This document shows positions 26,182-54,738 of a stretch of 64,000 nucleotides of DNA, in pieces. Source of the DNA: a virus. The stretch is taken from positions 32,001 to 96,000 of the IMG/VR virus record IMGVR_UViG_3300050821_016647, one strand, 5' to 3'. The notes under the pieces are model-generated. The model did not search any database and was not told where the DNA came from. It saw nothing but the letters and a program-made list of their open reading frames with translations. Position 1 is the first letter of the stretch. Each line of letters starts with the position of its first letter. The translations under genes and the position numbers were made by a program.

Positions 26182-27255
26182 CTATCGTTTCTTCTGCTTG
26201 TATCCGCGCAGCTTCAACTTGCCGGCTTCTGCGAAGCTGTAGAACTTCGTCTTGGTGCAAATAATCACGTGATCCATCAGCTCCAAGTTGACAGTCTGGG
26301 ACGCGTCCCGAATCGTCTCGGTCAGGAGCTTGTCCGAGTCCGATGGTTTACACACCGTCGAGGGGTGATTGTGCACTACGATAATCGCTGAAGCGCCTTC
26401 GACGACAGCGATACGTAGAACGTCCGGCACGGGTACATCCACTTTATCGCGAGCGCCGCGAGCGATCTCACTGATCCCGCGGACCATGAGCTGCGAGTCA
26501 ATGAGAATCGCAAGGAAGACCTCCTGGTCCTGCGACATCATGTACTCGCCAACCAACTTGCAGACACTCTTCGGCCCCGTCATCGGACCGATAGCCTTCG
26601 CCGCCGCGAGACACGAGCGAAACCGCTCGGGATCTCGAGCGATACGCACCCACGGCAAGCATTGAGGAGTCCTCGACGCATACGCACCGGTGAGCTCCTT
26701 CGAAAACGGCGTCTCAATGGACTCCTTGATCGCGTACCCTCCCCCCTCACTCGCTGCGAACCGATCGAACACGACCGCGTTGGGTGTCCCCGCTCCTTCA
26801 CACGCGGGTCCGCAGCACGCGACCTGATCCCCGCCGGGCTCCGCTACGGCAAAGAGCGGCTCGCTCGCCGTGTTACCAGTCAGGAGTCGTCCGCGACCTG
26901 CAAACGCGACCTCGGTCCGTTGCGTACCCACGACCGCGACGTCGACAGCGACCTTGCCGTCACAGCCGCAGCCTGGCTTCTTCCCGCCCGAGAACGCCTG
27001 CTCGAGGTTCCCCGCCGCCTCTATAGAGGAGAGCGGCACCGGCCGACCGTACGTCTGCTCGTCGACCGCAAGGCCGCTGAGCTCGTCGGCTTGGTCCGAC
27101 GCGACCCAGCGCTTGGCCTGATCGAACGGCACGCCAACCAGGACCGCTTGGCCGCCGAGGTTCGAAAGAATCCAGGCTCGAGACGTCCCGTCTTTCAAGG
27201 TGAAGACGAGCTGGAGGCGGACAGAATATCCGGGCGTGTTTTCGGAGTGGTTCAT
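26182..27255 (-). CDS. JAB/MPN (RadC-like) metallo-enzyme with long N-terminal extension
   Basis: QEVF...HNHPS...PSDSD...LMDHVII: intact JAMM motif in the C-terminal ~130 aa. Confidence 0.85.
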   Translation of the reverse strand: MNHSENTPGYSVRLQLVFTLKDGTSRAWILSNLGGQAVLVGVPFDQAKRWVASDQADELSGLAVDEQTYGRPVPLSSIEAAGNLEQAFSGGKKPGCGCDGKVAVDVAVVGTQRTEVAFAGRGRLLTGNTASEPLFAVAEPGGDQVACCGPACEGAGTPNAVVFDRFAASEGGGYAIKESIETPFSKELTGAYASRTPQCLPWVRIARDPERFRSCLAAAKAIGPMTGPKSVCKLVGEYMMSQDQEVFLAILIDSQLMVRGISEIARGARDKVDVPVPDVLRIAVVEGASAIIVVHNHPSTVCKPSDSDKLLTETIRDASQTVNLELMDHVIICTKTKFYSFAEAGKLKLRGYKQKKR

Positions 27256-49593: not shown

Positions 49594-51761
49594 GATACAC
49601 TTGGGACCCCGCCTGGCGCGCGAAACTTTCCGCGCACGATGTCGCAAAGGTCGCTACTAAGACGCGCGGGCACATCGAGACGGACGGGCAGATGCCGTGG
49701 GCATCGAAGCAGGAGGCCCTCCGGGACGTCGAGGCGTTCGAGCGCGGGGACCCGTGTCCGGAATTCACCGGAGGGCACGTGCACGGCAAGCCGGTACTGA
49801 GTCGCTTACACATTTACGAGGAGAAGAAATGAGTTGGTTCACTAGGTTCTTCGAGAAGGCGACGCCGAAGCGTAAGTTTTCTGAGCCGAGATTCGTCACG
49901 TACCGGTGCCATCGGATTACATGCCCAGCTTGCGGAAACCGTTCGAGGACGGAGAGACATTGGTTTGCATTGAGGCCATCGGAGAAGGATGGTCTCAATT
50001 GACACACCTGCGCTGTCAACAGGCACCTGAAGGACAGAAGCCGGCTGGAGACGTCGATGCTTACGAGTTGCCGGAGTGGGCTCTCAGCAGGCTAGCAAGA
50101 AGATGACCCCCGGCTCCGCTCAGCTCGAGAATCCGGATGAGGTCTTGCTCGACGTGGTGGGGCTCTGCGCGAAGGTCTGCAAGGACAACGAGCTGACCGG
50201 TCGCGTCTACACAAGCGACCTCACGGAGCTGCGGGACCTCATCAACGACATTCGACGGCACGTGTCGTCGGGCGGCGGGTACAAGTCACTACCGCGGCTC
50301 ATCAAACCAGGAGAAGACGAATGATCTGGCGCTACCTCAGCTACTGGCTCGCGATGGGCGCGGCGGGAATCGCGCTCAACATCATCTTTGCACTGTTCGG
50401 CATCGGAGAGTTGCATCGAGTGCTGAAGACCGCCAGCGTGAAGGTGACCGGCGGAAGCGAGCTGACCCGGCTCTCGATCATCGTCAGCGCGATCGTTGGA
50501 GTCGTCATTGGCGCGGCGTTCTCAATGTCGCTTGGACCACTGACGCTGGTCAGGGCCTTTCTCGGGCTCCGGAAGCCGAAAGAGGGCTCGTGAAGGAGAC
50601 CTGCGACTACTGCGGCAGCAAACTCGTTTACCCGTGCGTCGGACTCGGCTGCCCGTTCATTGAAGACTCGGAGTGCAACATCTTCTGCAACGACGAATGC
50701 CGAGAGGCGTGGGTTGCTCGGGAGGCGGCGATGAATCCATACCGCGAACAGATCGAGCAGCTCGCTCGCGACGCGGCCATCGTGAAGCGGGAGTACGACG
50801 CGTCGCAGGTCGCGCACGAGGCGATGAAGAGCGCCGAGCGGAGCGTGCTCATGGCGGTATATGCTCTAGTCGGTCCTGAGTACGTACCGACGTCGATACC
50901 TCTCGGCAGCACGTTGCGAAAGGAACTAGAGGACGTGGTCGTATGTCTCCGCGCGAAAGGGATCAGTAAGCACGCAGAGATGGTCGCGGCCGTCGTGGTG
51001 CTGTTGCCATGACCCCCTACCGACAGACCATTACTCTTGATGCGATTCCTCGTCGGCCCACGCGTGAAGAGACGATGAAGAAGTTCAACCGCGGGATGAT
51101 CAATGGTCCGCCGTGGCGAAGATGGGACGCGTTGGCAGCAGCCAATCAAGGGCTGCTGGTCGTGCTCCTATGTCTCATGGGGCCGCATCCATACGGTGGA
51201 TGGATCGACATCCCTTGCGGTATCCTCGGTCTCGTGTTCTCGATCTTTGCTGCATTCCGATACTGGCGTGAGGCGCCATACCGGCGACTCGTAGAAGAGG
51301 CTGAGGCGGAGCTCAAGATGTTGACTGAGAACGAACATGGGTGAGGCGAAGCGGAAACGAGAGCTGGCCAAACGCGCGGAAACGGAGCGAGCTGCGGAGG
51401 AGCTACGTGTAGCCATCGAGCCTCCGGCGAAACCGCTCAACCGCAAGCGTGACCGAGAGATGGCCGCCGCCGGGGTCTTCGACAAGTACAACTGCGACCT
51501 CATGCCGAAGGGGACCGTGATGAAGTCCAACGACATCGTGCACGTCGACGGTGGCGTGCATTTCTATACGGACAAGAAATGAGCTGCTGCATTGCGTGCA
51601 GTGTTGCGCTCGAAAGACCGAACAACGAGATCGCCGCCGTTGCGGTACTTGCTTATGGGTGGCGTTCCAAGAAAACCGTCGAAGAGATTTGTCGTGACCT
51701 GTGCGAGCGGCACGAGGCGATGTTCAAGCGCGGGTATGTCGCGGCGGAGAAGGTAAAATGA
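49590..51761 (+). CDS. Cluster of small hypothetical genes (49590..49832, ~50103..50324, 50321..50593 TM, 50590..51012, 51009..51344 TM, 51337..51582, 51579..51761)
   Basis: Chain of coupled overlaps. Confidence 0.6.
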
Positions 51762-52093
51762 AAACCATACACTTCATCGTCAACGGGGAGGATATCAAGG
51801 TCCGTGTCGAGGATGAGCTGCCGCTCGAGTGGGCGACGCGGCGCGCACTGCGACTCAGCTACAACACGAGTCGGCCGCCTCAGGATTGGGAGCTACGTCA
51901 CGAATCCGGGCAGCTCGTCGACGACGGGATTTGTTGCGAGCGGATACCTGAGCACGGTCATTTGTTTTTGACGCTGCGGGTCAGTGCTGGAGGTAACCGG
52001 CGATACATCTTTTCGTCACTGCGTGCAGACTGGTCGCTAGGTAACCGGCGATACATCTTTCCGTCGCTGCGTGCAGACTGGTCGCTGCGGTGA
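51758..52093 (+). CDS. Ubiquitin-like (DUF2604-like beta-grasp) protein with a 32-aa extension after Gly-Gly
   Basis: IHFIVNGE...LPL..A...AL..S.NT.RPP.DWELR.ESG...LFLTLRVSAGG (79 aa to GG); ATGA-coupled. Confidence 0.7.
   Translation: MKTIHFIVNGEDIKVRVEDELPLEWATRRALRLSYNTSRPPQDWELRHESGQLVDDGICCERIPEHGHLFLTLRVSAGGNRRYIFSSLRADWSLGNRRYIFPSLRADWSLR
51992..52087 (+). repeat. 2 x 48-nt tandem duplication starting at the last Gly codon of the Ubl GG
   Basis: ggtaaccggcgatacatct...ggtcgct(a/g) twice with 3 mismatches; encodes GNRRYIF(S/P)SLRADWSL. Confidence 0.9.
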
Positions 52094-52268
52094 AACGCGC
52101 CGACCCCATGCTGCTGATGTGCAAGCTCCAAGGCAACGGCGGGCGGCCCATGAAGCGCCGGACGATGAAGAAGCGTCTGAGCCGCGTCCTCGCAGAGGTG
52201 AGGCGGCGGTTCTTGCGGAGAAGGGCCTGATGTTCCCCATCGAGCCGTTTCCCTGGTAGGCTTCAAGG

Positions 52269-54204: not shown

Positions 54205-54738
54205 TCACGCGTCGGCCTCTTCTTCCTCCTCTTCCTCCTCCTCTTCTTCTTCTTCCTCTTCTTCCTCGTCTCCACCGCCGAGGTCGACGTCGTAGCGGTC
54301 TTCGACCGATTTCTTGTCGAGCACGAGTGGGTACTGGTCGAATTCGCCCCAGCCGTAGTTGCTGGCGTAGACCTCGTAGGCCCACGCGCGCTCCATGGGG
54401 TCGTCGCTCATGAACGCGGCCTTGACCTCGCTGGGCTTCTGGCCCGACGTCTGGGCGGCGGATTTCAAGCTCCCCCAGGTCGGGACGCCTCGGTCGAGAG
54501 GGACGCGGTAGATGGTCCAGCGTGCCTCCTTGTCGTCGAAGTCGACGTCGTCCGGTGGCACCTCGACGTACTCGAGCTCGTAACCGTCGCTGCGGCCCGT
54601 GCTGGCTTCCTGCGGTGACTTGAGCACCTGGCCGCCGTCGTACTCGGGGAAGTTGACGTCGCCGACGGTACCGATGATTTCGTCGCCGAACTTGTTCTTC
54701 TTGGGCTCGCGGGTGCGGCGGGTGTGTGCTCTGGGCAT
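54205..54738 (-). CDS. Hypothetical protein with poly-Glu tail
   Basis: Basic N-terminus; 17 consecutive Glu at the C-terminus. Confidence 0.75.
   Translation of the reverse strand: MPRAHTRRTREPKKNKFGDEIIGTVGDVNFPEYDGGQVLKSPQEASTGRSDGYELEYVEVPPDDVDFDDKEARWTIYRVPLDRGVPTWGSLKSAAQTSGQKPSEVKAAFMSDDPMERAWAYEVYASNYGWGEFDQYPLVLDKKSVEDRYDVDLGGGDEEEEEEEEEEEEEEEEEADA

What the first reader, a model, noticed from the sequence alone, without database searches (positions are those of the whole stretch)
51758..52093. Virus-encoded ubiquitin-like protein with a capped Gly-Gly
Seen: a 79-aa domain ending LFLTLRVSAGG, followed by two copies of a 16-aa unit. The 48-nt duplication starts exactly at the last Gly codon. 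No E1 or E2 is present in the window. Known: DUF2604-like Ubls serve in bacterial Bil-type antiphage ubiquitination, where they are conjugated to virion proteins and processed by JAB peptidases. Inference: a decoy or dominant-negative inhibitor of host E1/E2/DUB, or a pro-Ubl awaiting cleavage. A decayed stop is also possible (GGA GGT AAC is one base from GGA GGT TAA).
Basis: partly seen in the sequence, partly recalled or inferred. Interest (0 to 1): 0.8.

Follow-up and report, generated by a model that had tools for sequence, protein, structure and literature searches.

The report
Orphan phage BilA-like ubiquitin precursor
A 127.5-kb soil virus carries a lone copy of BilA, the ubiquitin-like tag of a bacterial anti-phage system, with its reactive Gly-Gly end covered by a duplicated 32-residue tail and none of the attaching enzymes, so it probably interferes with or exploits the host's tagging machinery, which is untested.

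Summary
ORF 51758-52093(+) encodes 111 aa: a 79-aa beta-grasp core ending LTLRVSAGG, then two 16-aa units from a 48-nt tandem duplication that starts at the last Gly codon. Contigs from three other soil studies span the duplication without a difference, so it is not an assembly artefact.

The core belongs to Pfam DUF2604, the Ubl of Type II BilABCD operons. Its profile matches Ensifer aridi BilA (E 7.5e-10), and the predicted fold matches those chains best (TM 0.81). The complete virus genome has no E1, BilB-type E2 or Prok-JAB; it has only a RadC-type JAB protein 25 kb away. Three other virus records that carry the domain also lack these enzymes. Both bacterial genome hits sit in Type II Bil operons.

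A cap on the Gly-Gly is normal for this family: 113 of 153 representatives have residues after GG, and the first is usually small. What is unusual is the length of this tail, its duplication, and its wholesale replacement in a close relative with a 99%-identical core.

Best reading (0.45): a precursor Ubl handled by host Bil-type enzymes and used as a competitor. No function was tested. This scan has found orphan phage BilA-like genes on other DNA. No held paper describes them.

The parts
51758..52093 (+). Whole gene: 111-aa BilA-like (DUF2604) ubiquitin-like precursor plus stop
   Evidence: ORF list and translation. Pfam PF10790 at E 2.4e-09, 37.9 bits, cut-off 25. Whole-genome scan finds this single copy.
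51758..51994 (+). Beta-grasp core, residues 1-79, ending in the family-conserved Gly78-Gly79
   Evidence: AF2 gives strands 2-8, 11-17, 44-47 and 68-73 and a helix at 23-33, with pLDDT 81-92. Foldseek top hits are 8tyx_A and 8tyz_B (BilA), TM 0.81/0.78, rmsd 1.4-1.6 A. The profile aligns G79 with Gly97 of E. aridi BilA. dN/dS against L023 is 0.017.
51995..52090 (+). 32-aa C-terminal extension (NRRYIFSSLRADWSLG NRRYIFPSLRADWSLR), net charge +5, predicted disordered
   Evidence: pLDDT about 30 for residues 77-111. No similar sequence elsewhere in the genome or the fetched loci. Replaced by an unrelated 20-aa tail in L023 although the flanks are conserved.
51992..52039 (+). Copy 1 of the 48-nt tandem duplication, starting with the Gly79 codon
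   Evidence: TRF. Sequence read directly. Copies compared.
52040..52087 (+). Copy 2 of the 48-nt tandem duplication: 3 differences from copy 1, of which 2 are synonymous and 1 changes Ser to Pro
   Evidence: Spanned by independent contigs.
51746..51753 (+). Shine-Dalgarno-like GGAGAAGG, 4 nt before the ATG
   Evidence: Read from the sequence. Inference only.
51579..51761 (+). Upstream 60-aa ORF whose TGA overlaps the Ubl ATG (ATGA), which suggests translational coupling within a run of small + strand genes
   Evidence: Only a weak HTH_48 hit.
52108..52230 (+). Downstream 40-aa very basic ORF, conserved in the close relative L023; it marks the right-hand boundary of the variable tail segment
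   Evidence: DNA alignment. Gene called at the same place in L023. No Pfam hit.

Best explanation
The gene encodes a virus-borne, stand-alone member of the Type II BilA (DUF2604) ubiquitin-like family, made as a precursor. It has a 79-residue beta-grasp core ending in the family's reactive Gly-Gly, followed by a 32-residue disordered propeptide that arose by an in-frame 48-nt tandem duplication.

Shown: family membership, fold, the conserved Gly-Gly, strong purifying selection on the core, the reality of the duplication, and the absence of any E1, E2 or BilC-type peptidase in the complete virus genome.

Inferred: because the virus cannot activate or trim the protein itself, host enzymes of a Bil-type pathway act on it. 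A JAB peptidase such as BilC would cut after Gly79. The exposed Gly-Gly would then enter the E1 (BilD) adenylation site. The abundant viral Ubl would compete with the host's own BilA for the peptidase, the E1 and the E2. It would either soak up their capacity or be attached in place of the host tag, and so blunt the defence.

On this reading the tail is a removable cap. Its sequence is free to vary or is under diversifying pressure, and its duplication need not matter for function.
For: Identity:
- Pfam DUF2604 above cut-off.
- The profile of the six closest sequences hits E. aridi Ubl(BilA) 8tyx/8tyz at E 7.5e-10, aligned end to end up to the reactive Gly.
- The AF2 core is confident and matches those chains best, ahead of ubiquitin and NEDD8.

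Selection:
- Against L023 the core has 16 synonymous and 1 non-synonymous difference, dN/dS 0.017.
- GG is kept in 141 of 153 family representatives.

Orphan status:
- No ThiF, Metal_CEHH or Prok-E2_C in G000, and no Prok-JAB match above the family cut-off (its one weak match is the RadC-type protein).
- G001-G003 have none of the four.
- The same searches found all four next to the Ubl in bacterial genome G005.
- All ten sampled metagenome contexts of relatives are phage-like runs of small genes without these enzymes. Some hold anti-defence-type Pfam families: Tad5, and a weak AcrVA2-like hit.

Precursor reading:
- Chambers et al. show that BilC trims residues after the conserved Gly and that an uncleaved residue blocks adenylation.
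- In the family, the residue after GG is A/S/N/D/G in 77 of 113 cases against a 32% background (p 2e-15). The window's Asn80 fits this.
- Some members carry whole domains after GG: a phage zinc finger, an integrase, DUF4326.
Against: - No functional data of any kind. The host is unknown, so it is unknown whether it has a Bil system.
- DUF2604 is rare in bacteria: 1 of 401 genomes in the phylum sampled. That makes a dedicated anti-Bil gene less obviously useful.
- A 32-aa tail is far longer than the 0-9 residues reported for operon-borne BilA, and nothing shows that BilC-type peptidases accept it.
- A substrate that is cleaved and turned over is a poor inhibitor unless it is made in large excess.
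- The anti-phage role and the targets of Type II Bil are themselves unsettled.
Confidence: 0.45

Rival explanations
1. Pro-viral hijack. The virus supplies its own Ubl so that host E1 and E2 enzymes attach it to viral or host proteins for the virus's benefit, for example to protect target lysines or to mark proteins. This would resemble the ubiquitin genes of some eukaryotic viruses.
For: It rests on the same facts as the main reading: a conserved reactive GG under selection with no viral E1 or E2. Two close relatives end exactly at GG and would be ready for activation without trimming.
Against: No candidate target and no viral E3-like or adaptor gene was recognised near the gene. Suitable host enzymes are rare. 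Nothing here separates this reading from the competitor reading.
Confidence: 0.15
2. Cleavable leader. The Ubl is a folding or cleavage module like ubiquitin in ubiquitin-ribosomal protein fusions, and the functional product is whatever follows GG. Here that would be a basic, aromatic 16-aa peptide in two copies, released by a host or viral peptidase.
For: Family members carry unrelated domains directly after an intact GG: Phage_zn_bind_8, Phage_integrase, DUF4326. Tail type B is conserved between L023 and L024, with tail dN/dS 0.21 against 0.15 for their cores. The tail is swapped as a unit between conserved flanks. The duplication doubles the peptide dose.
Against: Forty of 153 representatives, including two close relatives, have no tail at all, so the core must work alone. 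The tail has no recognisable motif or homologue and is predicted disordered. Some of the fusions may be gene-calling read-throughs.
Confidence: 0.12
3. Non-covalent beta-grasp adaptor. The domain works purely by binding a host or viral partner. The GG is inherited baggage or structural, and the tail is an extra binding peptide.
For: Two related virus records (L019, L020) carry a DUF2604 domain that has lost GG and continues into about 115 further residues. The domain therefore persists in viruses without a reactive end.
Against: GG is kept in 92% of representatives and in all six close relatives. The position after GG is also constrained. This is hard to explain without a peptidase or an E1 acting there.
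Confidence: 0.13
4. The tail is an accident. A lost stop codon, for example a 1-nt deletion in GGN TAA, lets translation run into former spacer DNA that happens to hold a neutral 48-nt duplication. The tail would have no role and might mildly impair the protein.
For: - Relative L005 has GGA GGA TAG at the same place, and its Ubl ends at GG.
- The tail's GC pattern by codon position (0.53/0.56/0.66) is weaker than the core's (0.66/0.42/0.70).
- 32 stop-free codons are not improbable at this GC content.
- No second, diverged example of this tail type was found to test selection on it.
Against: The core is under very strong purifying selection, so the gene is not decaying. Another tail type in the same clade evolves like coding sequence. 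The two copies differ by 2 synonymous and 1 non-synonymous change and keep the frame, though these numbers are too small to weigh. The same sequence is present unchanged in four studies.
Confidence: 0.15

Closest known systems
Type II BilA, the Ubl of CEHH/6C (Type II BilABCD) operons, e.g. Ensifer aridi BilA, PDB 8TYX/8TYZ (Chambers et al., bioRxiv 10.1101/2023.09.26.559546)
   Same: - Same Pfam family (DUF2604).
- Single beta-grasp domain of the same size, about 30% identity, TM 0.81.
- Conserved reactive Gly at the same aligned position.
- Made with extra residues after that Gly, which in E. aridi are removed by the JAB peptidase BilC.
   Different: - Encoded by a virus, alone, with no BilB, BilC or BilD anywhere in the genome.
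- The tail is 32 aa and internally duplicated, against 0-9 aa reported for operon copies.
- It sits among small phage genes, not in a defence operon with CapH/CapP-type regulators.
Type I BilA (Collimonas sp. OK412; Hor, Wolf and Sorek, bioRxiv 10.1101/2023.09.04.556158)
   Same: Ubiquitin-like tag with a C-terminal Gly that is essential for defence. This is the system for which conjugation to a phage tail fibre was shown.
   Different: Type I BilA has two fused Ubl domains and usually ends at the Gly. The window's protein has a single domain and hits no PADLOC model.
Virus-encoded ubiquitins and ubiquitin fusions of eukaryotic viruses (baculovirus v-ubi; ubiquitin inserts in pestivirus polyproteins); from general knowledge, not tested here
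   Same: A virus carries the host pathway's tag without the enzymes and relies on host E1/E2 enzymes or deubiquitinases. Cleavage after Gly-Gly can release a downstream part.
   Different: Different domain of life and no close sequence relationship (about 22% identity to ubiquitin in the structural alignment). Here the host pathway is an anti-viral defence rather than general proteostasis.
Orphan phage BilA-like genes noted earlier in this scan on other DNA (e1-5790962, e1-5321706, e1-5324778, e1-5823351)
   Same: Lone DUF2604/BilA-type Ubl in large uncultured phages without conjugation enzymes. Forms that end at GG, capped forms and forms without GG have all been seen.
   Different: This copy has the longest simple tail among them and an internal duplication. 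It also shows the tail being replaced as a unit between near-identical phages.

Membership tests
DUF2604 / Type II BilA ubiquitin-like proteins | Significant match to the family profile | tested here: met
   PF10790 at 37.9-39.2 bits against a cut-off of 25. 38.4 bits in the genome scan. Profile match to PDB BilA chains at E 7.5e-10.
DUF2604 / Type II BilA ubiquitin-like proteins | Beta-grasp (ubiquitin) fold | tested here: met
   AF2 core pLDDT 81-92 with beta-beta-alpha-beta-beta order. Best PDB matches are 8tyx_A and 8tyz_B, then ubiquitin and NEDD8. This is a predicted structure, not a solved one.
DUF2604 / Type II BilA ubiquitin-like proteins | Conserved reactive C-terminal glycine after the last strand | tested here: met
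   G78-G79 are invariant in the six close relatives. They align with Gly97 of E. aridi BilA. GG is present in 141 of 153 representatives.
Type II BilABCD defence system (as a system) | Ubl gene in an operon with E2 BilB (Metal_CEHH), JAB peptidase BilC and E1 BilD (Prok-E2_C + ThiF) | tested here: not met
   No ThiF, Metal_CEHH or Prok-E2_C in the complete virus genome. The only JAB-fold protein is of RadC type, 25 kb away. Positive control: all of these were found beside the Ubl in G005.
Type II BilABCD defence system (as a system) | Short (0-9 aa) non-conserved extension after the Gly, removed by BilC | tested here: inconclusive
   An extension is present and non-conserved, and its first residue (Asn) fits the family bias. 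It is 32 aa long, outside the range reported for operon copies. Cleavage cannot be tested with these tools.
Type II BilABCD defence system (as a system) | E1/E2-dependent conjugation of the Ubl to lysines | not testable with these tools
   Needs biochemistry or proteomics.
Type I BilA (ISG15-like, two Ubl domains) | Two fused Ubl domains and a match to ISG15-like system models | tested here: not met
   One beta-grasp domain only. No PADLOC model hit at E<=1.
ThiS/MoaD sulfur-carrier beta-grasp proteins | Match to ThiS/MoaD profiles; partner ThiF/MoeB | tested here: not met
   DUF2604 is the only Pfam hit at E<=1. No ThiF-family gene in the genome.

The most novel reading that the evidence does not exclude
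The segment after Gly-Gly is an exchangeable cassette under arms-race pressure. Phages with 99%-identical Ubl cores carry unrelated tails, and one tail type is conserved across more distant phages. The tail would then decide how the viral Ubl meets the host peptidase. It could act as a trap or slow substrate for BilC-type enzymes, or as a peptide set free only in cells that have such an enzyme. That would make this the first described phage countermeasure against bacterial ubiquitin-like defence, with a tunable warhead.
Probability: 0.15. Interest if true: 0.8.

Novelty: new variant of a known kind. Interest (0 to 1): 0.55.

Why it matters
Bacterial ubiquitin-like conjugation (Bil, Bub, Type II CBASS) is a recently described branch of anti-phage immunity. 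The papers held here, including a November 2026 review of phage countermeasures (PMC13728456), describe no phage answer to it.

A recurrent, strongly conserved, enzyme-less copy of the tag in large soil phages is a concrete candidate for such an answer. It is easy to test, because the cognate enzymes of a Type II system have been purified and crystallised. It would also parallel the ubiquitin genes of eukaryotic viruses.

This copy adds two usable facts. The Gly-Gly cap can be long, duplicated and swapped as a unit. The position right after Gly-Gly is constrained across the family, which points to a peptidase acting there.

Tried and rejected
- Complex prediction of BilD from bacterial locus L022 with Ubl residues 1-79 gave no verdict (score 0.02, controls not run). 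This is not evidence either way.
- The look-up of sequencing runs listed no RNA holder, so nothing can be said on expression.
- The tail unit resembles the Ubl's own last strand (HLFLTLR against YIFSSLR) only weakly: shuffle p 0.03 for the chosen segment, 0.18 against the whole core, 0.24 at DNA level. Rejected.
- The idea that tail type A is a frame-shifted derivative of tail type B, or of other tails or spacers, was rejected: local DNA alignments are no better than shuffles, p 0.3-0.9.
- The repeat as an RNA element: fold z-score -1.4, no Rfam match in the region, and no promoter-like or terminator-like site in the tail. Rejected.
- No nucleotide or protein match in the 50,697 phage records.
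- Pattern scans with the close-clade alignment found nothing in IMG/VR or GTDB genomes. The 75-sequence alignment was too diverse to scan with.
- PADLOC and PHROGs gave no family for the protein.
- The RadC-type JAB protein as a cognate peptidase: the JAMM motif is intact, but RadC is absent from the three other Ubl-bearing virus records. It was left as a lead only.
- 'Relatives' cannot be drawn for a virus record.
- Literature searches for DUF2604, phage-encoded ubiquitin, Bil decoys or Bil inhibitors found nothing relevant. The library lacks most subscription papers.

Full report
**What is there**

The window is bases 32001-96000 of a single 127,529-bp IMG/VR virus record. The record has direct terminal repeats, is rated 100% complete, has 61.5% G+C and is found in soil metagenomes. 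It has phage replication genes: primase/helicase, a DNA helicase and a Sak4-like annealing protein. It also has ThyX, a dCMP deaminase and an integrase.

The ORF at 51758-52093(+) encodes 111 aa. A GGAGAAGG motif precedes it, and its ATG overlaps the stop of a 60-aa upstream ORF (ATGA). It therefore sits in a co-directional run of small genes.

Residues 1-79 end in LFLTLRVSAGG. Residues 80-111 are two copies of a 16-aa unit. At DNA level, a 48-nt unit (51992-52039) that starts with the Gly79 codon is repeated at 52040-52087 with three differences.

**Is the duplication real?**

Logan contigs from three other soil studies each cross the whole repeat with no difference and no gap. The two copies also differ from each other. 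An assembly artefact is therefore excluded. These are contigs, not reads, so minor length variants could not be seen.

**What the protein is**

- Pfam places it in DUF2604 at 38-39 bits against a cut-off of 25.
- A profile of it and its five closest relatives matches the solved Ubl(BilA) chains of Ensifer aridi (8tyx, 8tyz) at E 7.5e-10. The match runs over residues 4-79 and ends at the reactive Gly97.
- AlphaFold2 gives a confident beta-grasp core (pLDDT 81-92) and a disordered tail (about 30).
- Foldseek ranks the BilA chains first (TM 0.81, rmsd 1.4 A, 29% identity), then ubiquitin and NEDD8.
- PADLOC, which holds the Type I ISG15-like models, gives nothing.

**What DUF2604 is**

The two GTDB genomes recovered with a family alignment are a Gemmatimonadaceae MAG and a 'delta proteobacterium' MAG. 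In both, the DUF2604 gene is followed by a Metal_CEHH protein and a Prok-E2_C+ThiF protein.

Chambers et al. state that CEHH/6C operons are Type II BilABCD. In their account the CEHH protein is the E2 BilB, and the Pfam14459+E1 protein is BilD.

Conjugation to a phage tail fibre was shown for Type I. PMC11601603 says the Type II targets are still unknown.

**Orphan status**

The complete virus genome has no ThiF, Metal_CEHH or Prok-E2_C match. Its only JAB-fold hit is a RadC-type protein at 26182-27255(-). That protein has an intact HxHx7Sx2D motif.

Three other IMG/VR records of 132-202 kb that carry the domain also lack all four enzyme families, and they lack RadC. The same searches found every enzyme beside the Ubl in the bacterial control genome.

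Ten sampled metagenome contexts of relatives are all phage-like arrays of small genes. They hold nucleotide-metabolism genes, integrases, HNH genes and sometimes Tad5 or a weak AcrVA2-like hit. None has an E1, E2 or JAB gene nearby.

In bacteria the domain is rare: 1 of 401 genomes in the phylum sampled.

**The cap in context**

An exhaustive HMMER search found 394 clusters at E<=0.001. Among the 153 sequences in hand:

- 141 keep GG at the aligned end.
- 40 stop there.
- 60 have 1-9 further residues.
- 53 have 10 or more.

A cap is therefore the rule, as published for operon BilA, where it is 0-9 residues and trimmed by BilC.

The first residue after GG is A, S, N, D or G in 77 of 113 cases, against 32% at later tail positions (p 2e-15). 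That is what a scissile bond would show, and the window's Asn80 conforms.

Some members carry whole domains after GG: a phage zinc finger, an integrase, DUF4326. One viral form has lost GG and is fused to about 115 residues.

**What is particular here**

Among the six close relatives, two end at GG, two share a 20-aa tail, one has a 38-aa tail (38-40 depending on alignment), and the window has its 32-aa duplicated tail.

The window and L023 have cores that differ by one residue, with 16 synonymous and 1 non-synonymous change (dN/dS 0.017). Their downstream sequence, including a 40-aa basic ORF, is nearly identical. Yet the stretch from just after the GG codon to the stop is unrelated.

The 20-aa tail is shared by L023 and the more distant L024. 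It evolves like coding sequence there (dN/dS 0.21, against 0.15 for their cores), although only 20 codons are involved. So tails are translated, can be conserved, and can be replaced as units.

For the window's own tail type no second, diverged example exists. Selection on it cannot be judged, and a lost-stop origin is not excluded. The two repeat copies differ by two synonymous changes and one Ser/Pro change.

**How it most likely works**

Three things are shown. The core is under strong constraint, a reactive Gly-Gly is kept, and the site after it is constrained.

The next step is inferred. A peptidase and an E1 act on this protein, and both must come from the host, because the virus has neither.

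The simplest role for an enzyme-less copy of a defence system's tag in a phage is competition: occupying BilC, BilD and BilB, or being attached in place of the host tag. I put this at 0.45.

The rivals are:
- use of the host enzymes for the virus's own tagging (0.15);
- a cleavable leader that delivers the tail (0.12);
- a purely non-covalent adaptor (0.13);
- for the tail only, an accidental read-through (0.15).

A co-folding test with a stand-in E1 gave no verdict.

**Novelty**

The protein is a clear member of a known family. The system-level setting is not described in the papers I could search: it is virus-borne and enzyme-less, with long and exchangeable caps. That library omits most subscription journals.

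Earlier agents of this scan reached the same reading for other phages, so this is a further instance of a recurring, still untested pattern. What this instance adds is the tail duplication and the cassette-like exchange.

Noticed in passing
window 26182-27255 (-): 357-aa protein with a C-terminal RadC-like JAB domain (Pfam E 2e-29) and an intact HNHPSTVCKPSDSD metal-binding motif. It is the only JAB-fold protein in the virus. RadC is absent from three other Ubl-bearing virus records, so no link to the Ubl is supported.
   Followed up: partly
window 52108-52230 (+): 40-aa, very basic ORF (Arg/Lys-rich) directly after the Ubl gene. It is conserved almost unchanged in relative L023, where a gene is called at the same place. 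No family hit.
   Followed up: partly
G000:27486-33023 (L011:7486-13023) and the whole genome: The block of large genes just upstream of the window gave no terminase, portal or capsid hit in Pfam or PHROGs. The virion type of this 127.5-kb virus stays open, as other first readers of this genome noted. The genome also has an integrase (G000:110030-111094), a Cdc48/FtsH-type AAA ATPase (G000:10168-12015), a Mg-chelatase-like ATPase and a subtilase.
   Followed up: partly
family level (proteins P0001-P0153): Nine of 107 post-GG tails end in Ala-Ala (expected 1.3, p 5e-6), an SsrA-like ending that earlier agents of this scan also noted. The window's tail ends in SLR and does not share it.
   Followed up: partly
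L019:5992-6567 and L020 (IMG/VR records of 178 and 132 kb): Viral DUF2604 domain in which the LTLRVGAGG end is replaced (MFLALRMASICH...) and continues into about 115 further residues. This version cannot be conjugated.
   Followed up: no
L022:3706-8361 (delta proteobacterium MAG): Type II Bil-like operon whose BilA carries an N-terminal AbiEii-like nucleotidyltransferase domain. An AbiEi/MarR-like regulator lies directly upstream and a Prok-JAB gene about 2 kb upstream, rather than between BilB and BilD.
   Followed up: no
proteins P0034, P0038, P0042, P0138: DUF2604 domains with an intact GG followed in the same ORF by a Phage_zn_bind_8 zinc finger, a tyrosine integrase or DUF4326. These are either ubiquitin-fusion-like precursors or gene-calling read-throughs.
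   Followed up: partly
window 54205-54738 (-): 177-aa protein ending in a run of about 17 Glu, encoded by a TCT/CCT repeat at 54216-54271. No family hit.
   Followed up: no
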